Positions 1,612 to 8,673 of a stretch of 64,000 nucleotides of DNA are shown here, one piece after another. The DNA is from a virus. Where the stretch lies: the IMG/VR virus record IMGVR_UViG_3300009164_000039. One strand, written 5' to 3'. A program made the translations under genes and the position numbers. The notes beneath the pieces were generated by a model. The model was not told where the DNA came from, searched no databases, and worked only from the letters and a program-made list of their open reading frames with translations. Each line of letters begins with the position of its first letter. Positions within the stretch are counted from its first letter, which is position 1.

Positions 1612-4600
1612 TTACAAACTCGATTGATAATGACGTTCAGCAATGTCTTTATGTCTGCCCAGTGTGTCAATCATTTCACGTTGTTGTTCTATTTGCTTTT
1701 GGCTGATCATCACCAGCTGGCTCATGTTGTCTGTTAGTGTTTTCATTTCTGGGCTTGCTTCTGCTCGAGGCTTATCCTGCTTGGCAAGTTTGGTATCGTC
1801 TGATTTGGCTTCTTCTTTTTTAGGAGCAACTGGTTTCATTGCATCTGTCATTGCTGCCACTTGCCCTGCAAGGCCGCCTACCACTGCACCCATTGGGCCG
1901 CCTACCATAAAGCCAGCGCCTGCGCCGGTCAGTAGATCTTTGTTTTTACTAGCAAAGTCTCCAATGATGCCTTTGTCAGAGAACGCATTCTTGATGCTGT
2001 CCATTGCACCACTCACAGGATCTTTGCCTGCATTGTCTTTGTTGAGTCCCTGTGCCTTGCCCATCAGCTGTGCAAGTTCAGGATTGTCTTTCATGTACTT
2101 GTCAAACTGTTCCTTGCTTGCAGGCTTGCCGTTGATGGTAAATGTTTCTGACTGCTTGCCTGTAACAGGTTGAGTGTTACCAATGTTAAAGAAGCTTTTG
2201 GCTGAGTCTACTAGTCCGCCTAACACACCTTTTTCTTTGTTGTCTTTGGCTGTGACATTTTCAACCAGTGTGCCAATACCCCCGCCAAGTATGGTACCAA
2301 GTCCTGGAAGTAACATTGTGCCAATGGCCGCGCCCACTGCTGTGCCACTGTTTAGTCCCATCTTTTCTAAAAAGTTTGGCTCGTCTTTTTTATCACTGCC
2401 TTTAGTTTTTGCAGTACTAGCTTTTTCTGCTGTCTTGCGCTTCCAGTCTGCAAACTGTTCGTCTGTCATGCTCTTGCGAGCCAACCGTTCTACCTGCAAC
2501 GATTCCATGCGGGCCATGTCTTGCTTGCTCAGGCTGTCTAGTTGTACGTTTACTAGTTTGCTATTGTTGTCTAACTGCTGACCAAACAATGATCTAGTTT
2601 GAGCAAACTGTTCATCAAAGTTTGATTGATTCAAGCTTCTTGTTTTGTCGAGGTCTGCCAGCATTGTGCTGGTTGTTAGCTTGGATCCAACTTGGAAGTC
2701 ATCAAACAACTTGCTGCCAAAATCAGTGGCTTCAAAGTTAACTGGCTGTCTCATGGCTGCAAACATTTTGTCAAAGCTGCCAGTATTTGTATTGCCCTTA
2801 CCTTCGCCGGGTGTTGGTTTGACCATGTCAAACGTTTTACTCAAACTAGATGTCATTGTTGAACCCATGCTACCAAAGCCTGAGTTCAATGTTTCTGTAA
2901 TTGTATTTTTTTGTGCTTCTGCCAATGCCATTGGGTCAATGCTAGGTATACTAACGTCCAATGGTACCTTGCCGCCCACAGTAGGAATAACTGCTTCCTC
3001 TCCGTGCAATGCCACTGCATAGCCACTTTCAGGACCTGATGCTATACCACCACGTGCATATCCGTTTTTCTTAAAATATGCAGTTTCTGCATCAACCCGC
3101 TCTTTTCTTACATCGTCAACTGTTTTACCAGTCATAGCTTGTAGCAGACCACTCATCAACCCACCAGTTAATGTATCAGTTACTGCTCCAGCTTTTTCAA
3201 TACCCCGGGCGGCACCAGACTCTGCTTTCTGGTACCATTTCATCTTCTTCCAGTTTTCGTCGTCTTGCTGGTCAATTTGAGATTTACCAGCTTGTTTGCT
3301 ACCTGCTCCTAATCCAAGTTCATTGATTGCAGTTCTTACACTTTCAAGCATTGCTTTGCTTACTTCAGCAAACTTTGCAATGGCTGGCGTTAGCAGATCT
3401 TGCAGTGCAAGTTTCAAATCTTGTGCGGCTTTTTCGGCACCGATCACACTGTTTGTCAGTGCGTCTGACGTAGTTTTTGCGGCTTCTGTATTTTTCTTTG
3501 CGGCTTCTACACCTTCTGCTGTGTAGGTGTTTGCTTGTGTCAATGCGTCAGCCATTGCTTGCGCGGCACCTTTAACAGACTCTGCGCCTGAGTAGGCAGC
3601 AACACCCAGTGCTTGTTGACCTAGAATACTTTGTTTGATTTGTTCACCGTACTGTTGATTAAGATCTGCATTTGATGTTGCTGTGAGGTTACCTTGTTCA
3701 GCTAGTTTGAATGCTGCCTCGCCTTTAGCTCTTGCTCCATCAATGGTTGCTTCATAGATTGCACCTTCTTTATTGATAACTTCACCAAACACCATGCGGT
3801 CGCGGAAATTTTTCTTTTCCTGATCTGTCATAGTTGCCATGGCCGCGTCAAGTTGAGCACGTTGCTCTTGACTCATGCCAGCTACTTTTTGTTGGAATGC
3901 AAGCACAGCATTTTCCTGCTGTATTGCAGCCATTTTCTTTTTAGCATCCTCACCAGTAATAGAACTAATGAGTCTTAGATTTTCTGCATACTTGGCTGTT
4001 TGTTCTGCTACTTTTTTGTCGTCTAGTTTACCACCGCCTGCTTTACGCATGTTGGCCATGGTTTCTGCTGTGAGTGCTGCCTGTTCTTCAAAACTATACC
4101 CTAGTTTCAATAACTGATCTTGCACACCACTGTTTTTAAGCTGTTGCCCAACTCTACCAATCTGTTTAGCACCTTCTACAACACCAAGCCCTGACGAACC
4201 AATTAGTTCACTATTTGCACTAACTACTTTTGAAAACTGTTCAATCGTGAGTCCTGCTCCTGATGCCGCATTTCGCATACCAGTCATACCGTCGGCAAAT
4301 ATTGCGCCGCTGGCACTCATAGCATTGAATGCGCCAACTGTTTTTTCTACTTCTTTGCTCAGTACTTCAACGCCAAATTTGGCCAGCTTGCCCATGGCGT
4401 CAGATGCGGCACCAGTTACAGTGCCCAATACCTGAAGTCCTATTCCAACAAACTTGGCTGGCCCAGGTAACGCCGATAACGCACCACCTACACCAGACAT
4501 GACGCCACCAAGTGCTTTACCTGCACCGGCAGCAACATCTATACTGGCATTCATCAACCCAGATGCTAGCTCTGTTCCAGATGCATTGGATTGTAATCCT

Positions 4601-5052
4601 TTGATTAGTCCGCCAACGGCTTTGGTGGCACCGCTGGCCAGAGTCTTACTCATTTCTACTGCACCAGTTGTCACTGATGCACGTGCTTGATTTCTAGCTT
4701 CTTGTGCTTGTAATTCGTCTCGTTTGGTTTCTAATGCCGCTTTATCAAATTCACTGGTTGCATGTTTTGCGGCTTCTGACAGTCGATCAATATCAGCCTG
4801 CATGCTCTTGAAGGTGCTTTTGCCTGTGGCCAGTTCTTTGAAGAATGAACCAAATTCTGGCTTGGTTTTTTGTTTTAGATCTGTGCTGAGTTTGCGCAAC
4901 TCAATGTCTAGCTCAGCCGCAGTTAATCCAGCATCACCAATTTCTTTGATTTTCTTGGTAGTTGCGTCTGTCTCACCACGAAGTTTTCCAAAAGCCTCAA
5001 ATAGAGCTTTCATCATCATTTCTTGTTCGGGTGTCATTCCTTCTGCGGCCAT
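1612..5052 (-). CDS. Tail tape-measure-like protein (1146 aa)
   Basis: Long Ala/Gly/Lys/Glu/Gln-rich helical protein with the motif YARGGIASGPESGYAVALHGEEAVIP, common in tape-measure C-terminal regions. Lies next to baseplate-hub assembly genes and has a perfect TATAAATA upstream. Confidence 0.72.
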   Translation of the reverse strand: MAAEGMTPEQEMMMKALFEAFGKLRGETDATTKKIKEIGDAGLTAAELDIELRKLSTDLKQKTKPEFGSFFKELATGKSTFKSMQADIDRLSEAAKHATSEFDKAALETKRDELQAQEARNQARASVTTGAVEMSKTLASGATKAVGGLIKGLQSNASGTELASGLMNASIDVAAGAGKALGGVMSGVGGALSALPGPAKFVGIGLQVLGTVTGAASDAMGKLAKFGVEVLSKEVEKTVGAFNAMSASGAIFADGMTGMRNAASGAGLTIEQFSKVVSANSELIGSSGLGVVEGAKQIGRVGQQLKNSGVQDQLLKLGYSFEEQAALTAETMANMRKAGGGKLDDKKVAEQTAKYAENLRLISSITGEDAKKKMAAIQQENAVLAFQQKVAGMSQEQRAQLDAAMATMTDQEKKNFRDRMVFGEVINKEGAIYEATIDGARAKGEAAFKLAEQGNLTATSNADLNQQYGEQIKQSILGQQALGVAAYSGAESVKGAAQAMADALTQANTYTAEGVEAAKKNTEAAKTTSDALTNSVIGAEKAAQDLKLALQDLLTPAIAKFAEVSKAMLESVRTAINELGLGAGSKQAGKSQIDQQDDENWKKMKWYQKAESGAARGIEKAGAVTDTLTGGLMSGLLQAMTGKTVDDVRKERVDAETAYFKKNGYARGGIASGPESGYAVALHGEEAVIPTVGGKVPLDVSIPSIDPMALAEAQKNTITETLNSGFGSMGSTMTSSLSKTFDMVKPTPGEGKGNTNTGSFDKMFAAMRQPVNFEATDFGSKLFDDFQVGSKLTTSTMLADLDKTRSLNQSNFDEQFAQTRSLFGQQLDNNSKLVNVQLDSLSKQDMARMESLQVERLARKSMTDEQFADWKRKTAEKASTAKTKGSDKKDEPNFLEKMGLNSGTAVGAAIGTMLLPGLGTILGGGIGTLVENVTAKDNKEKGVLGGLVDSAKSFFNIGNTQPVTGKQSETFTINGKPASKEQFDKYMKDNPELAQLMGKAQGLNKDNAGKDPVSGAMDSIKNAFSDKGIIGDFASKNKDLLTGAGAGFMVGGPMGAVVGGLAGQVAAMTDAMKPVAPKKEEAKSDDTKLAKQDKPRAEASPEMKTLTDNMSQLVMISQKQIEQQREMIDTLGRHKDIAERHYQSSL

Positions 5053-5122: not shown

Positions 5123-5980
5123 ATGGACACTAAATCCGTCAAAGCACCTGCATCAAATCCGCTAGCAAAACATTTTAGACAACCCGCAATTTATCTTGCA
5201 CTACCAAGTCTTGGGCGCTGGTGGCCAGAAGGTTCACTGGACATGCCTGAAAATATGGAGATTCCTGTCTACCCAATGACCACAAAAGACGAAATCTTGC
5301 TTCGCACTCCTGATGCGTTGTTGAATGGATCTGGTGTTGTGGGTGTTATACAAAGCTGTTGCCCAAACATTAAAAATGCATGGGACATGCCTAGCATTGA
5401 TGTGGACCCTGTGCTGATTGCTATTCGCATCGCCAGCTACGGACACCGCATGGATTTTGGCGGACAATGCCCGCACTGCAATGAAAGCAATGATTATGCA
5501 ATTGACTTGCGCACAGTAAGTGACGGAATGAAATGCCCGGACTTTGATATTCCTGTGGAAAGCAATGATCTAAAAATTGTGTTGAAACCACAAAGATATT
5601 TTGCAGTGAATCAAAATAATCAACTGCGCTTTGAAGAACAGCGCATCATGAGCATTGTTACAGATGATTCAGACCCTGAACTAAAAACCAAAATGTTCAA
5701 TGAAAGCATGACCAAACTAAATCAGCTGAACATCGACGGCCTAGTATCCAGTACTACTTCAATCACAGTAGAAGATCAGGAAGTGACCGACGAAGCATTT
5801 ATCCGTGAATTCTTTGAACAAACAGACAGCAAGATTGTGCGACTGATTCAAACACGACTAACTGAAATGGCCATGGAAGCCAACGTCAAACCTGTGCCTG
5901 TCAGTTGCATGGAATGCAAAAAGCCATTCACTATCACAATCACATTTGACTACGCAAGTTTTTTCGCAACCGGCTCCTGA
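5123..5980 (+). CDS. Baseplate hub assembly protein, T4 gp26-like (285 aa)
   Basis: NPLAKHFRQPAIYLALPS, PVYPMTTKDEILLRTPDALLNG, IDVDPVLIAIRIASYG and two CxxC pairs (CPHC, CMEC) fit gp26-like hub/chaperone proteins. Divergent from the tape-measure gene. Confidence 0.7.
   Translation: MDTKSVKAPASNPLAKHFRQPAIYLALPSLGRWWPEGSLDMPENMEIPVYPMTTKDEILLRTPDALLNGSGVVGVIQSCCPNIKNAWDMPSIDVDPVLIAIRIASYGHRMDFGGQCPHCNESNDYAIDLRTVSDGMKCPDFDIPVESNDLKIVLKPQRYFAVNQNNQLRFEEQRIMSIVTDDSDPELKTKMFNESMTKLNQLNIDGLVSSTTSITVEDQEVTDEAFIREFFEQTDSKIVRLIQTRLTEMAMEANVKPVPVSCMECKKPFTITITFDYASFFATGS
5959..5965 (+). other. Candidate -1 programmed ribosomal frameshift site (T TTT TTC)
   Basis: X XXY YYZ heptamer in the correct phase (AGT TTT TTC), five codons before the stop. 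The -1 frame is open from 5950 and continuous with ORF 6007..6195. Confidence 0.55.
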
Positions 5981-6006: not shown

Positions 6007-6195
6007 ATGATCGAGGGTTACGAGAAAGAGTCACGAGCCATTAGAGAAGAAGCGTTGCGTTTTAGTTGGTGGATGCGTGGAGGTTTATCATATGAAGACG
6101 CAATGATACTCAGTCGAGAAGAACGCGAAATCATTTCAGAAATTATCAAAGACAACTTGGAGAACACCAAGAAGTCAGGCATGCCAATGTTCTAA
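6007..6195 (+). CDS. Small tail/baseplate assembly ORF (gp51-like or chaperone 'T'-like); possibly the C-terminal part of a frameshift fusion
   Basis: 62 aa (WWMRGGLSYEDAMILSREEREII) directly after the gp26-like gene, in its -1 frame, with no clear Shine-Dalgarno before ATG 6007. Confidence 0.6.
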   Translation: MIEGYEKESRAIREEALRFSWWMRGGLSYEDAMILSREEREIISEIIKDNLENTKKSGMPMF

Positions 6196-6222
6196 CCCAT
6201 TCAAGACTTACTGCGTAAGTCT

Positions 6223-6258
6223 ATTGCTTTCGCTATGCGCTCAGCAATGATTTTTCTT
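6223..6258 (+). terminator. Possible intrinsic terminator for the gp26/gp51-like transcript
   Basis: Stem attgct (6223-6228)/agcaat (6243-6248) followed by gatttttctt, preceded by a perfect 8-bp hairpin agacttac/gtaagtct (6204-6222). The loop is large, so the call is weak. Confidence 0.35.
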
Positions 6259-6285
6259 CTACTAATATAAACGAGAGCGAAGCGA

Positions 6286-6661
6286 TAGTAAGTTTCATCT
6301 AGATTCTATGGTCACACTTTGCCCGCACAGGGCAAAGAAAGCTTCATCTGAGTTCTGACAGCACTTAGCGTTACAACAATTACAGAGGCGGTTGTCCGGT
6401 ACCTCGAGTTGCGTCTTTATAACAACGGCGATTTAGTATACATACGCTAACACATACACTAAACGTGTGCAATCGCTTGCACGTCTTTTCAGCCTTAACA
6501 TTTTGTTCAAACAATCAAACTGGGGCATTTAACCAGTCAACATCCTTTCGGGTAGTGATTGAGTACTCTGTACAGCGCAGAGAATTCCGTCCCTGTGATC
6601 CGAGATCCAGGTTTAGGACACCCGAGTTAGGCCGGTGCGAGCCAATACTGTTAACTTGCTA
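6286..6661 (-). ncRNA. Putative large structured non-coding RNA (family not recognised)
   Basis: Only long intergenic region in the window. Hairpins at 6317-6337 (8 bp), 6385-6405, 6432-6463 (13-14 bp with 4-5 G.U pairs only on the minus strand), 6467-6482 (GCGA GNRA loop on minus strand) and 6566-6582. A long-range 8/9-bp closing helix pairs 6653-6661 with 6286-6294. Confidence 0.6.
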
Positions 6662-6670
6662 GACTGAGTG

Positions 6671-7099
6671 TCAGAGTTTGTTGATTATGTGTGAGCCATG
6701 TACACGAACTTGAATGTGTCCGTTATAGTAGTCTGTTGATTCTAGCACTTTGCGTGTGAATTGTTCTCGGGCTTCGATGTATGAGCATTCTGCTTTGGAT
6801 TTACAAATAAAGAGGATTTCTCTGGTGAAGTTTTCTGTGCCCAGAGCAACAACATCTTTTGTTAGTTCCGGGCTTGAGCCATAATAGGTGCGCCAATCAC
6901 TGTCGATCTTGGAGCGGATTTTCTTTTTCTTTTTGGTGCCGTTTTTTAGCTTTACTGTTTTAAGTGTGGTCTTAGAAAATTTTGCTAGTTTTTTACCTAT
7001 GTACTTGCGGCCAGAGATAGTATTAGTGATCATGTAGACAAACCCAATGCAGTCATCGGGCAGTTCCTCTACTGTTTTGCCTTGAAAAGTCCATGTCAT
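6671..7099 (-). CDS. Stand-alone GIY-YIG endonuclease (Seg-like catalytic domain, 142 aa)
   Basis: GFVYMITN...KYIGKK, YYGSS, conserved E (YIEARE) and YYN. Has a Lys-rich insertion (KLKNGTKKKKKIRSK) and no C-terminal NUMOD/HTH DNA-binding modules. Confidence 0.85.
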   Translation of the reverse strand: MTWTFQGKTVEELPDDCIGFVYMITNTISGRKYIGKKLAKFSKTTLKTVKLKNGTKKKKKIRSKIDSDWRTYYGSSPELTKDVVALGTENFTREILFICKSKAECSYIEAREQFTRKVLESTDYYNGHIQVRVHGSHIINKL

Positions 7100-7143
7100 A
7101 ATACGTAAACATAATTATCTCGTGCGTCAGTGGGGTTAAAATA

Positions 7144-8673
7144 TCAGTGTTCTGTGTCAATTTGTGCCAGTTTTACTAGAGGTTTAGTGCGGTCTTGGCC
7201 TATAATCTGCTCCGCAATGATCTTCAATATCTTGAGTTCTTCTGTGCCTTTGGTGATGGGATAGTTTAGTCTAGCACTAAGCTCATGCACCTCTAAACGG
7301 CGCCGCAAGCGTTCTTTTAGTGTTAATGTTGGGTTATTTAGGTTGATCCAGTTGCGTCCATACACCCAGTCTTGATCTTGGTCTTCCAAATGGCTCAAGT
7401 TCAAATCAGGCCATTCAGGCACCAGCTCAAGTCCTAGATTGCTGAGTTCCAGTCTACTGCCGCGATCTATACTGCCTGTGTATCCCCAGCGTATGAGTGC
7501 TATGGTACCTGCTTGCATGTACTTTTGATAGCGTTTCAAGAATTGTAGCTGTTCTTTATGATCAGACATTGTTTCTGTTGGGTAGCCTATGAACATTAAA
7601 AATACGTTTTGTATGCCGTAGCGAGCACACATGCGAATGTGATGATCTAAATCATCGTTGTCAAACTCTTTGCCCATGTGCTGTCTTACAGCCCAGCTGG
7701 CATGTTCAACTCCAGTGATCAACATACGACTGCCACCTGCTGCCATGGCAGCGTACATTGTTTCTGGCATGTCTTTGGCCTTGCGTATGTTAAATTGGCT
7801 CAGCCATGTGGGCTTGAACTCTGGATTTTCTTGTGACAGTCTAGCAATGTTTATATTAAGAGAATAAAACTCTTTGAGGTTACCGTTGATAACGCTGTCG
7901 GTAAACTGAAACAGTTGTACTTTTGTTTCTTTCCAGTGCTGTAACATTTCATTGGCCATGCTCTCACCTGTACGATATTTGTACTTGGGCCAGCGATGTG
8001 GCACATCACAAAATGTACAACGGCGCACACAGCCTCGAGAAGCAGTCAAGTAAATGCCTGCTGTTTGATTGTAAAAGTATTTCCACGGATCTAGCTTGCT
8101 GAAGTCTGCAGGAGGCAAAGATTCAATGTCATCAATTTGCACAGTAGGCCGATCATCTGTTCCGTCTACATCAAAGTTGCCTTGCATCCATTGCTGCCAC
8201 ATGATCTCGCCATCACCCCAGCCCACATGATCCACTAGACTCTGTTCACGCAACCAGTCGCCAAAGCGTTTGGTGCCGTACGGAGTAGTGAGTCCTTGCC
8301 CACCCGCTACCAACATCACTTGACTCATTGGTCGGAAACGTTCACAGAACAATCTAGCCGCACGAGTACTAAACTTTGAAAACACACTCACTGCCACACA
8401 GTCATAGCCGCTGGCAATGATGTTGTCTATAGTGATGTCAAACTCTTCAAACACTCGCTGTGGCAACAGCCTGTCATGTGCTGTGCGCCAGTAGTCACTG
8501 GCTTCTGCAAATTCTTCTGCTGTCAGCTTCTTTGCCAGTTGTAGATTGATATCAAACACCGTGTAATCAATACCCATGTGACGACATAGTCCGCCTAGCA
8601 CAGCAGGTGCGGCAGGTGGTCGTTCAAGCTCTTGGCTTGGGAAAGTTACAATGGCCACACGTTTATACATCAA
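7144..8673 (-). CDS. Cobalamin-binding-domain radical SAM enzyme (class B methyltransferase-like, 509 aa)
   Basis: CxxxCxxC in ASRGCVRRCTFC. The N-terminal region fits a B12-binding fold (PPAAPAVLGG, VAVSVF, LVAGG, VGWGDGE), followed by FTDSVING, GVEHAS and FIGYPTET. Confidence 0.85.
   Translation of the reverse strand: MMYKRVAIVTFPSQELERPPAAPAVLGGLCRHMGIDYTVFDINLQLAKKLTAEEFAEASDYWRTAHDRLLPQRVFEEFDITIDNIIASGYDCVAVSVFSKFSTRAARLFCERFRPMSQVMLVAGGQGLTTPYGTKRFGDWLREQSLVDHVGWGDGEIMWQQWMQGNFDVDGTDDRPTVQIDDIESLPPADFSKLDPWKYFYNQTAGIYLTASRGCVRRCTFCDVPHRWPKYKYRTGESMANEMLQHWKETKVQLFQFTDSVINGNLKEFYSLNINIARLSQENPEFKPTWLSQFNIRKAKDMPETMYAAMAAGGSRMLITGVEHASWAVRQHMGKEFDNDDLDHHIRMCARYGIQNVFLMFIGYPTETMSDHKEQLQFLKRYQKYMQAGTIALIRWGYTGSIDRGSRLELSNLGLELVPEWPDLNLSHLEDQDQDWVYGRNWINLNNPTLTLKERLRRRLEVHELSARLNYPITKGTEELKILKIIAEQIIGQDRTKPLVKLAQIDTEH

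What the first reader, a model, noticed from the sequence alone, without database searches (positions are those of the whole stretch)
6286..7099. Minimal GIY-YIG nuclease followed by a ~375-nt structured minus-strand RNA: candidate nuclease-RNA system
Seen: the only long non-coding stretch in 64 kb begins 9 nt after the GIY-YIG stop and is packed with helices. Hairpin 6432-6463 pairs fully only on the minus strand (4-5 G.U pairs that would be A.C mismatches on the plus strand), a stem is capped by a GCGA GNRA tetraloop (6467-6482), and a 8/9-bp helix joins its two ends (6653-6661 with 6286-6294). The 142-aa nuclease is catalytic domain only, with a poly-Lys insertion and none of the NUMOD/HTH specificity modules. 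Known: Seg/I-TevI-type GIY-YIG enzymes get specificity from C-terminal DNA-binding modules, and other compact nucleases (IscB, TnpB) use adjacent structured RNAs. Inference: the RNA may partner or guide the nuclease, or be an independent phage ncRNA or ribozyme.
Basis: partly seen in the sequence, partly recalled or inferred. Interest (0 to 1): 0.85.

Follow-up and report, generated by a model that had tools for sequence, protein, structure and literature searches.

The report
Knotted twin-box phage RNA beside nuclease
The gene-free gap behind a small nuclease gene of this uncultured T4-like phage encodes a real, multiply knotted non-coding RNA of about 360-450 bases; its first third is the catalogued but unexplained Polynucleobacter-1 motif, the rest carries one 7-letter word twice, and the nuclease looks like a usual neighbour, not a partner.

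Summary
Observation confirmed. Window 6671-7099 (-) encodes a 142-aa GIY-YIG nuclease (Pfam PF19835, E 4e-34). The gap behind it holds a minus-strand structured RNA. Rfam matches 6509-6643 (-) to RF01718, Polynucleobacter-1, an orphan motif (110.9 bits, cut-off 37). That is only the 5' third. In 83 distinct relatives the RNA runs from about 6653 to 6291: 87 pairs in 17 helices, four of them pseudoknots. 95.7% of cells pair, against 81% when shuffled, and 58 pairs show compensatory changes. A less conserved 3' hairpin pair lies at 6248-6203.

The core holds two 7-nt boxes (6349-6343 and 6300-6294, AGAUGAA). They differ between phages but are identical within almost every RNA (about 106 of 110). 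No complementary partner was found.

The guide-RNA reading is not supported. Distant relatives of the nuclease lack the RNA. Some RNAs follow an unrelated PD-(D/E)XK nuclease, follow inserted genes, or have no nuclease upstream. Best reading: an independent ornate phage ncRNA at the 3' end of a gene string; function unknown. This scan found the same RNA on other DNA many times. The tool for sequencing runs was closed, so expression is untested.

The parts
6671..7099 (-). 142-aa GIY-YIG nuclease gene: catalytic domain plus a Lys-rich beta-hairpin insertion. It is the usual upstream neighbour of the RNA.
   Evidence: PF19835 E 4.3e-34. phrog_447 E 1.5e-38. AlphaFold pLDDT 86.9. VIA-align to I-TevI 1ln0 Z 7.4, rmsd 2.9, 82 residues aligned.
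6291..6653 (-). Conserved core of the structured RNA (domains D1-D3): 17 helices, four of them pseudoknots.
   Evidence: D1, D2 and D3 lie next to each other in about 105 of 119 loci. 87 pairs: 95.7% paired against 81.0% shuffled (0 of 500 shuffles reach it) and 35-40% when partners are slid. 58 pairs show compensatory changes.
6509..6643 (-). Domain D1, the Rfam family RF01718 (Polynucleobacter-1 RNA).
   Evidence: cmscan 110.9 bits against a gathering score of 37, E 3e-23, model positions 1-141 of 141.
6647..6651 (-). 5' leader strand (ACAGU) of pseudoknot PK0. It pairs with the loop of helix P3 (GCUGU, 6572-6576). Rfam's model does not include it.
   Evidence: Own-sequence complementarity 4.51 against 3.76 permuted (sd 0.08, maximum 3.95 in 200 permutations). 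Covarying duplexes include ACGGU/GCCGU, UCAGU/GCUGA and GUAGU/GCUAC.
6467..6482 (-). Helix H6, a hairpin capped by a GNRA (GCGA) tetraloop.
   Evidence: Pairs 224-226 with 250-252 covary: GC, UA, CG and AU types.
6430..6465 (-). Helix H7, a 13-bp hairpin. Its 6-nt loop (6445-6450) pairs with 6365-6371 to form pseudoknot H8.
   Evidence: H7: 12 of 13 pairs change on both sides. H8: all 6 pairs change on both sides and 98.1% of cells pair.
6373..6426 (-). Helices H9 (6426-6422 with 6395-6391), H10 (6412-6408 with 6377-6373) and H11 (6404-6401 with 6389-6386). H9 crosses H10 and H11, which makes a pseudoknot.
   Evidence: 96-100% of cells pair, with compensatory changes in each helix.
6343..6349 (-). 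Twin box 1: AGAUGAA, preceded by the constant CUC and followed by G.
   Evidence: Identical to box 2 in about 106 of 110 RNAs. Word variants: RGAURAW in seven forms, plus GCAUAAU, GGAAAAU and AUCGAAA.
6317..6337 (-). Helix H12, an 8-bp hairpin between the boxes, followed by the conserved UGUGAC.
   Evidence: 96.7% of cells pair and 4 pairs show compensatory changes.
6294..6300 (-). Twin box 2: AGAUGAA, preceded by the constant UCU and followed by A.
   Evidence: Same evidence as box 1. Mutual information 0.78-0.99 with 99-100% identity at the three variable positions.
6203..6248 (-). Domain D4: two 3' hairpins. The first has an internal loop and a GNRA-type cap. The last looks like a terminator and abuts the stop of the convergent orf62. 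Detected in about half of the relatives.
   Evidence: nhmmer block D4. Covariation seen in the 20-sequence alignment. Terminator-like site at 6204-6222.
6007..6195 (+). Convergent 62-aa ORF, conserved in nearly all relatives. Then comes the baseplate-hub gene 5123-5980 (+). These mark the end of the transcription unit that holds the RNA.
   Evidence: tblastn synteny. PF12322 and phrog_150, baseplate hub.

Best explanation
The gap encodes an independent, trans-acting 'ornate' non-coding RNA of a T4-like aquatic phage. It is the full-length form of the orphan Rfam motif Polynucleobacter-1.

Shown: the RNA lies on the minus strand at the very end of a same-strand gene string. The upstream ORF's stop codon lies from 6 nt inside to 40 nt before the Rfam domain. 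A conserved pseudoknotted scaffold (D1-D3) carries two unpaired 7-nt boxes, each behind a constant handle (GAA-CUC or GAA-UCU), on either side of a hairpin. The two boxes are kept identical while their sequence drifts between lineages.

Inferred: the RNA is made by read-through of the upstream gene or from a promoter inside it. The scaffold presents both boxes to one sequence-reading partner. That partner is most simply a complementary nucleic acid encoded elsewhere, by the phage or the host, bound twice or alternately. The GIY-YIG nuclease is a conserved neighbour and is not needed for the RNA's function.
For: - Rfam RF01718 at 110.9 bits.
- More than 119 viral contigs hold the core motif, and D1-D3 are contiguous in about 105 of them.
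- 87 pairs: 95.7% paired, 58 with compensatory changes, 0 of 500 shuffles reach the observed values.
- 637 G.U cells against 74 A.C cells fix the strand.
- Pseudoknots PK0 and H8 are supported.
- The twin boxes are identical in about 106 of 110 RNAs. This holds through word changes at 5 or more of the 7 positions, and for entirely different words in a divergent lineage.
- No column inside the RNA covaries in a complementary way with the boxes.
- Independence from the nuclease: no RNA next to relatives of 37-51% identity. A PF24608 PD-(D/E)XK nuclease takes the same slot. Genes are inserted between nuclease and RNA. The L129-L131 lineage has a divergent DUF6641 gene upstream and no nuclease.
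- The distance from stop codon to D1 is -6 to +40 nt, median 12.
Against: - Transcript ends, processing and abundance are unknown.
- No partner for the boxes was found, either within about 1 Mb of flanks or in the 64-kb window.
- Within this clade the nuclease-RNA order is very tight. Both alternative upstream genes are nucleases, so a looser functional tie is not excluded.
- All the relatives come from one related group of phages, so conserved gene order alone says little either way.
Confidence: 0.5

Rival explanations
1. Nuclease-RNA system. The RNA binds the GIY-YIG enzyme, or the PD-(D/E)XK enzyme that replaces it. The twin boxes act as a duplicated short guide that directs cleavage to a repeated or symmetric target.
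For: - The RNA follows the nuclease directly in about 80% of clade members, whether loci are seeded on the RNA or on the protein.
- The gene that replaces it in the same slot is also a nuclease.
- The boxes behave as a variable segment within a constant scaffold.
- The ORF's 3' end overlaps the RNA's 5' pseudoknot strand in many loci.
Against: - The nuclease family works without the RNA in 462 isolate records, and five whole genomes lack RF01718.
- RNAs with twin boxes exist with no nuclease upstream or with other genes in between.
- Seven nucleotides is very short for a guide.
- The test for nuclease changes that track box changes could not decide: no pair of loci has an identical nuclease and different boxes.
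Confidence: 0.1
2. A cis-acting 3' element of the upstream mRNA. It would be a stabiliser against 3' exonucleases, a terminator complex at the point where transcription converges, or a device coupled to translation termination, since the ribosome stops within or next to the 5' pseudoknot.
For: - The RNA always sits at the 3' end of a same-strand gene string, whatever the last gene is.
- The stop codon lies 6 nt inside to 40 nt before D1.
- A terminator-like hairpin ends the element next to the convergent gene.
Against: - About 360 nt with four pseudoknots, plus boxes that are identical but variable, is far more than stabilisation or termination needs.
- In L129-L131 the element follows a 170-240-nt intergenic region behind a divergent gene, so it is not a 3' UTR there.
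Confidence: 0.15
3. A processed RNA or ribozyme. The two identical boxes are two copies of one cleavage site, cut by the RNA itself or by a phage or host endoribonuclease. Cleavage would release or circularise the roughly 50-nt hairpin segment, or splice it out.
For: - Two identical sites flank a conserved hairpin followed by UGUGAC.
- Each box sits in the same repeated module: helix, GUGAC, linker, A, three pyrimidines, box.
Against: - No Rfam ribozyme or intron model matches, even at E up to 1.
- A protein-read site should not drift freely between lineages.
- No internal guide covaries with the boxes.
Confidence: 0.1
4. A DNA-level element. The transcript would prime replication through an R-loop, as at T4 ori(uvsY) or with ColE1 RNA II. 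Or the direct repeats are recombination or crossover sites that must stay identical.
For: - The element lies beside baseplate-hub genes. By my own knowledge T4 ori(uvsY) lies in a comparable region.
- Identical direct repeats are what site-specific recombination requires.
Against: - The strong excess of G.U over A.C in 87 pairs, and the pseudoknots, point to a folded RNA rather than a DNA structure.
- The constant differences beside the boxes, CUC against UCU and G against A, argue against simple homogenisation of the repeats.
Confidence: 0.07

Closest known systems
Polynucleobacter-1 RNA motif (Rfam RF01718; Weinberg et al. 2010, Genome Biol 11:R31, PMC2864571)
   Same: Window 6509-6643 (-) matches the full model at 110.9 bits. 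The 2010 supplement already notes that most examples lie downstream of one gene family (GOS11034, possibly related to PSSM2_218 of cyanophage P-SSM2) and that the 3' half is not always detected.
   Different: - The catalogued motif is only the 5' third.
- The leader/P3-loop pseudoknot, domains D2-D3 with three more pseudoknots, and the twin boxes are not in Rfam or in the paper.
- The paper rated the motif as probably cis-regulatory and found none in sequenced phages. Here the next gene is convergent and all contexts are phage-like.
Large 'ornate' orphan RNAs often carried by phages: GOLLD, ROOL, OLE (Kretsch et al. 2025, Nature, PMC12286853)
   Same: Several hundred nucleotides long, many covarying helices and pseudoknots, phage-borne, function unknown.
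   Different: No sequence or model match. Smaller. No evidence here for homo-oligomers. The twin identical boxes have no described counterpart in those RNAs, by my own knowledge.
omega-RNAs and reRNAs of IscB and TnpB (HEARO RNA was an orphan of the same 2010 survey)
   Same: A structured RNA beside a compact nuclease gene, overlapping or abutting the ORF's 3' end, with a variable segment in a constant scaffold.
   Different: - The nuclease has a GIY-YIG fold, not RuvC or HNH.
- The RNA and the nuclease occur without each other.
- The variable part is 7 nt, internal and duplicated, not a terminal guide of 12-20 nt.
- No transposon ends were seen.
Stand-alone GIY-YIG nucleases: T4 endonuclease II (DenA, PDB 2wsh) and the I-TevI catalytic domain (1ln0)
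   Same: A GIY-YIG fold (Z 7.4 to 1ln0, 4.7 to 2wsh). It is about as small as EndoII and has no DNA-binding module.
   Different: No sequence-level match to PDB. It carries a 25-residue Lys-rich beta-hairpin insertion. It is not sporadic like Seg or Tev homing enzymes.

Membership tests
Rfam RF01718 Polynucleobacter-1 RNA | Covariance-model score at or above the curated gathering score of 37 bits over the whole model | tested here: met
   110.9 bits, E 3.4e-23, model positions 1-141 of 141, minus strand 6509-6643.
Rfam RF01718 Polynucleobacter-1 RNA | The family's helices are kept through compensatory changes | tested here: met
   P1, P3, P4 and P5 pair in 96-100% of cells and have 3-5 compensated pairs each.
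Rfam RF01718 as a cis-regulatory leader (tentative 2010 rating) | Lies in the 5' UTR of a same-strand downstream gene | tested here: not met
   In the window the next gene, orf62 at 6007-6195, is convergent. Elsewhere the downstream content varies from 0.3 to 3 kb.
GIY-YIG nuclease superfamily (Pfam PF19835 SegE_GIY-YIG) | Profile match above the cut-off, and the GIY-YIG fold | tested here: met
   117.8 bits against a cut-off of 25. VIA-align to I-TevI Z 7.4, UvrC 4.8, EndoII 4.7.
GIY-YIG nuclease superfamily (Pfam PF19835 SegE_GIY-YIG) | Motif residues conserved (GIY Tyr, YIG, Glu, Asn) | tested here: met
   Invariant in 33 sequences: G19, V21, Y22, Y33, G35, R93, E109, E112, N126. Which of them are catalytic is inferred from the I-TevI pattern. 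Activity was not assayed.
Free-standing homing endonuclease (Seg or Mob type) | Sporadic presence among close relatives, plus a C-terminal DNA-binding module | tested here: not met
   One copy per record in 462 phage records. Present in about 90% of RNA-bearing loci. 142 aa with no further domain.
RNA-guided nuclease systems (OMEGA: IscB or TnpB with omega-RNA) | Nuclease and RNA always occur together | tested here: not met
   The nuclease occurs without the RNA. The RNA occurs without the nuclease.
RNA-guided nuclease systems (OMEGA: IscB or TnpB with omega-RNA) | A terminal variable guide of about 12-20 nt next to a conserved scaffold | tested here: not met
   The only freely variable, conserved-in-place segments are two internal 7-nt boxes.
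Group I intron or known self-cleaving ribozymes | Match to an Rfam intron or ribozyme model; for an intron, an interrupted host gene on the same strand | tested here: inconclusive
   No Rfam hit other than RF01718 at E up to 1 over 6100-7200. No same-strand exon candidates flank the element. Self-cleavage was not assayed.
Type III toxin-antitoxin RNA (ToxI-like repeats) | Tandem near-identical repeats next to a ToxN-type endoribonuclease gene | tested here: not met
   Only 7-13 nt are duplicated, inside a large unique scaffold. The neighbours are GIY-YIG or PD-(D/E)XK DNA-nuclease families.

The most novel reading that the evidence does not exclude
The twin boxes are a duplicated, programmable specifier. 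The knotted scaffold would hold two copies of one 7-8-nt guide, so the RNA recognises two identical nucleic-acid sites at once, or a direct repeat. It could recruit the nuclease encoded just upstream (GIY-YIG, or PD-(D/E)XK in some phages). That would be a new kind of RNA-directed recognition in phages.
Probability: 0.1. Interest if true: 0.9.

Novelty: new variant of a known kind. Interest (0 to 1): 0.6.

Why it matters
Polynucleobacter-1 has been an orphan motif since 2010. This work shows four things. It is the 5' third of a much larger, multiply pseudoknotted RNA. The RNA is phage-borne. Its core carries two short sequences that evolve freely yet stay identical to each other.

Ordinary RNA folding gives complementary covariation, not identical covariation. 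Identity therefore points to an external reader, or to a copying or processing step that has not been described. That yields clear experiments: change one box, change both, then look for what binds them.

For annotation, the widespread 142-aa GIY-YIG family, often labelled 'NAD synthetase', is a core phage nuclease. It is neither a homing enzyme nor, on present evidence, RNA-guided.

Tried and rejected
- blastn of the gap against 50,697 phage records: no match.
- RF01718 in seven loci and five whole genomes of isolates that carry the nuclease family: none.
- tRNA or tmRNA in the window: none.
- Any other Rfam family at E up to 1 over 6100-7200: none.
- Folding energy of the single sequence: not better than shuffles on either strand.
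- A cis partner for the boxes: no complementary covarying column. No reverse complement at a consistent position within 3 kb either side. No own-haplotype enrichment of wobble-tolerant complements; one bin scored 0.39 own against 0.28 other.
- A trans partner in the window: an 18-mer able to pair with both boxes through wobble matches only the boxes' own opposite strand.
- The box word as a genome-wide motif such as a promoter or operator: the phage's own word is not enriched in about 0.86 Mb of flanks.
- The box-2 palindrome AUCURGAU as a dimerisation site: rejected, because L115 and L060 (GCAUAAU) break it.
- Hammerhead-like reading of UGAUGAGCG...GCGAAA in D4: rejected. The position that would be A6 pairs and covaries (A-U to C-G), and the window has C there.
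- Co-variation of nuclease and boxes: inconclusive. The closest pairs with different boxes still differ in the nuclease, at most 96% identity.
- phmmer of the nuclease against PDB, and Foldseek: nothing significant. VIA-align was needed.
- Literature: only the 2010 paper names the motif.

Full report
WHAT IS THERE

The window is phage DNA. A 1146-aa tape-measure-like gene lies at 1612-5052 (-). A baseplate-hub gene lies at 5123-5980 (+) (PF12322, phrog_150). A conserved 62-aa ORF lies at 6007-6195 (+). After a 475-nt gap come a 142-aa GIY-YIG gene at 6671-7099 (-) and a radical-SAM gene at 7144-8673 (-). No tRNA is present.

THE RNA IS PARTLY KNOWN

A scan of the whole window against Rfam gives one hit: RF01718, Polynucleobacter-1, at 6509-6643 on the minus strand. 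It scores 110.9 bits against a gathering score of 37 and covers the full model. The only paper in the library that names this motif is Weinberg et al. 2010. Its table rates the motif as probably an RNA, probably cis-regulatory, and possibly a switch. Its supplement says most examples lie downstream of genes of family GOS11034, with possible homology to PSSM2_218 of cyanophage P-SSM2. It also says the 3' half is not always detected, and that no example was found in a sequenced purified phage.

THE RNA IS MUCH LARGER THAN THE RFAM MOTIF

I built profile blocks from a 20-sequence alignment of the whole gap. They show that D1 (the Rfam part), D2 and D3 lie next to each other in about 105 of 119 loci. 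A fourth block, D4, made of two hairpins, is detected in about half.

I aligned 83 distinct sequences (A1). RNAalifold predicted 65 pairs. Mutual information added long-range helices and pseudoknots. The final structure has 87 pairs in 17 helices. On it:
- 95.7% of cells form standard pairs, against 81.0% in shuffles and 35-40% when partners are slid;
- 58 pairs change on both sides;
- the covariation score is 0.435 against 0.165;
- 0 of 500 shuffles reach any observed measure.

The sequences are related, so these numbers overstate independence. Still, many pairs show three to five pair types.

Four pseudoknots are supported:
- GGC with GCC across helix P1;
- the 5' leader with the loop of P3 (own 4.51 against permuted 3.76, sd 0.08);
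- the six loop bases of hairpin H7 with 6365-6371 (all six pairs compensated);
- H9 crossing H10 and H11.

The sense strand is the window's minus strand: 637 G.U cells against 74 A.C cells. In the window, 86 of 87 pairs form, 9 of them G.U. In window coordinates the conserved core runs from about 6653 to 6291, and D4 covers 6248-6203.

The hairpin at 6432-6463 and the GCGA-capped stem at 6467-6482 are real and covary. The helix said to join the two ends is present in this sequence but shows no conservation signal. Single-sequence folding energy is unremarkable.

THE TWIN BOXES

In D3 an 8-bp hairpin followed by UGUGAC is flanked by two 7-nt boxes: 6349-6343 and 6300-6294, both AGAUGAA here.
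- Across relatives the word varies: GGAUAAU, GGAUGAU, AGAUGAA, AGAUAAU, GGAUGAA, AGAUGAU, AGAUGAG. Divergent members have GCAUAAU or GGAAAAU. A lineage binned with Burkholderiales MAGs has AUCGAAA.
- The two copies are identical in about 106 of 110 complete RNAs.
- The flanks are constant and differ only by transitions. Box 1 follows CUC and is followed by G. Box 2 follows UCU and is followed by A. The three bases before that are often identical as well.
- Each box ends a repeated module: helix, GUGAC, linker, A, three pyrimidines, box.
- No column of the RNA covaries with the boxes in a complementary way.
- Searches for a partner found nothing. I looked in cis, in about 1 Mb of flanks, in the 64-kb window, and for the word as a motif enriched in the flanks.

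Identity rather than complementarity cannot come from folding. It calls for one external reader of both boxes, or for a copying or processing step. The constant CUC/UCU and G/A differences argue against simple homogenisation of a repeat.

A second oddity: position 6418 is identical to 6320, and both are complementary to 6334 in the hairpin. That suggests a base triple or an alternative pairing.

IS THE NUCLEASE A PARTNER?

For a link:
- In loci seeded on the RNA, a relative of the nuclease (66-83% identity) ends 35-90 nt before the motif core, on the same strand, in about 105 of 119.
- In loci seeded on the protein, 46 of 75 have D1 directly downstream. About 14 more have twin boxes at the expected distance, and about 9 have a gene inserted right after the nuclease.
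- The upstream ORF's stop codon lies from 6 nt inside D1 to 40 nt before it, median 12. So the ORF's end often overlaps the leader strand of the first pseudoknot.

Against a link:
- The protein family is very large: at least 8000 clusters. It is single-copy in 462 isolated phage records, including cyanomyoviruses, Melnitz, and phages of Stenotrophomonas and Sinorhizobium, and is often mislabelled 'NAD synthetase'.
- In seven such genomes the next gene follows within 0-150 nt and no RF01718 is found there. Five whole genomes also have none.
- In L046, L094, L113, L119 and L086 the slot is filled by an unrelated 172-aa PF24608 PD-(D/E)XK nuclease, annotated as a resolvase in phrog_244.
- In seven loci, one or two other genes sit between nuclease and RNA: two radical-SAM genes, a second ORF that looks GIY-YIG-like by eye but has no Pfam hit, and unknowns.
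- In L129-L131 the upstream gene is a divergently transcribed DUF6641 gene, and the twin boxes are intact.
- Fold comparison places the protein with stand-alone and modular GIY-YIG nucleases. T4 EndoII shows that such a domain can work alone.
- That a PD-(D/E)XK resolvase-type enzyme can take its place suggests, as inference only, that both serve a general DNA-processing role.

VERDICT

The RNA is real, and its 5' third is a known orphan family. The full-length form and the twin boxes are not in Rfam and appear in no paper of the library searched. The guide-RNA idea is not supported, but it is not fully excluded.

The best reading, at about 0.5, is an independent ornate phage ncRNA at the end of a gene string. 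Its scaffold would display two identical short specifier boxes to an unknown reader.

Earlier notes of this scan describe the same 'twin-box / extended Polynucleobacter-1' RNA on many other genomes and reach the same view of the nuclease. I reached these points independently before reading them.

Noticed in passing
L046:13758-14273:- (also L094, L113, L119, L086): In some relatives the GIY-YIG gene is replaced, at the same spot just before the RNA, by an unrelated 172-aa PF24608 PD-(D/E)XK phage endonuclease (phrog_244, 'resolvase'). A non-homologous nuclease takes the same slot.
   Followed up: partly
window 7144-8673 (-); L093:241-2375:-: A 509-aa radical-SAM gene lies upstream of the nuclease in the window. 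In L093 two other radical-SAM genes lie between the nuclease and the RNA. The flanks of the RNA seem to be a hotspot for variable cargo genes.
   Followed up: no
window 6552 and 6542 (alignment A1 columns 127 and 140): A perfectly coupled non-Watson-Crick exchange, C/U in 49 sequences and U/C in 34, beside the small hairpin inside helix P4. It could be a conserved non-canonical pair or tertiary contact.
   Followed up: no
window 6418, 6320, 6334: Position 6418 in D2 is identical to 6320 in 90% of sequences (A, G or U). Both are complementary to 6334 in the inter-box hairpin. This suggests a base triple or an alternative pairing.
   Followed up: partly
phage records (e.g. NC_041997.1, NC_028945.1, NC_015290.1): Relatives of the 142-aa GIY-YIG protein are annotated 'NAD synthetase' in many RefSeq phage records and in phrog_447. 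That looks like a propagated misnomer.
   Followed up: partly
L129, L130, L131 (MAG contigs labelled Haliscomenobacter, 'Bordetella parapertussis', Limnohabitans): A divergent form of the RNA sits on contigs binned with freshwater bacterial MAGs, next to DUF6641 genes. This is either a host clue (Burkholderiales) or phage contigs mis-binned.
   Followed up: partly
L125:486-532:+ (Prochlorococcus phage P-SSM7): A sub-threshold match to the glutamine riboswitch (RF01739, 31 bits against a cut-off of 35), about 1.5 kb upstream of that phage's copy of the nuclease gene.
   Followed up: no
L016:7481-8061:+ (also L095): Here the RNA, with twin boxes AGAUGAA, lies between a small winged-HTH gene and genes for a D-Ala-D-Ala carboxypeptidase (PF00768) and an IscA-like protein. 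There is no nuclease within 3.6 kb upstream.
   Followed up: partly
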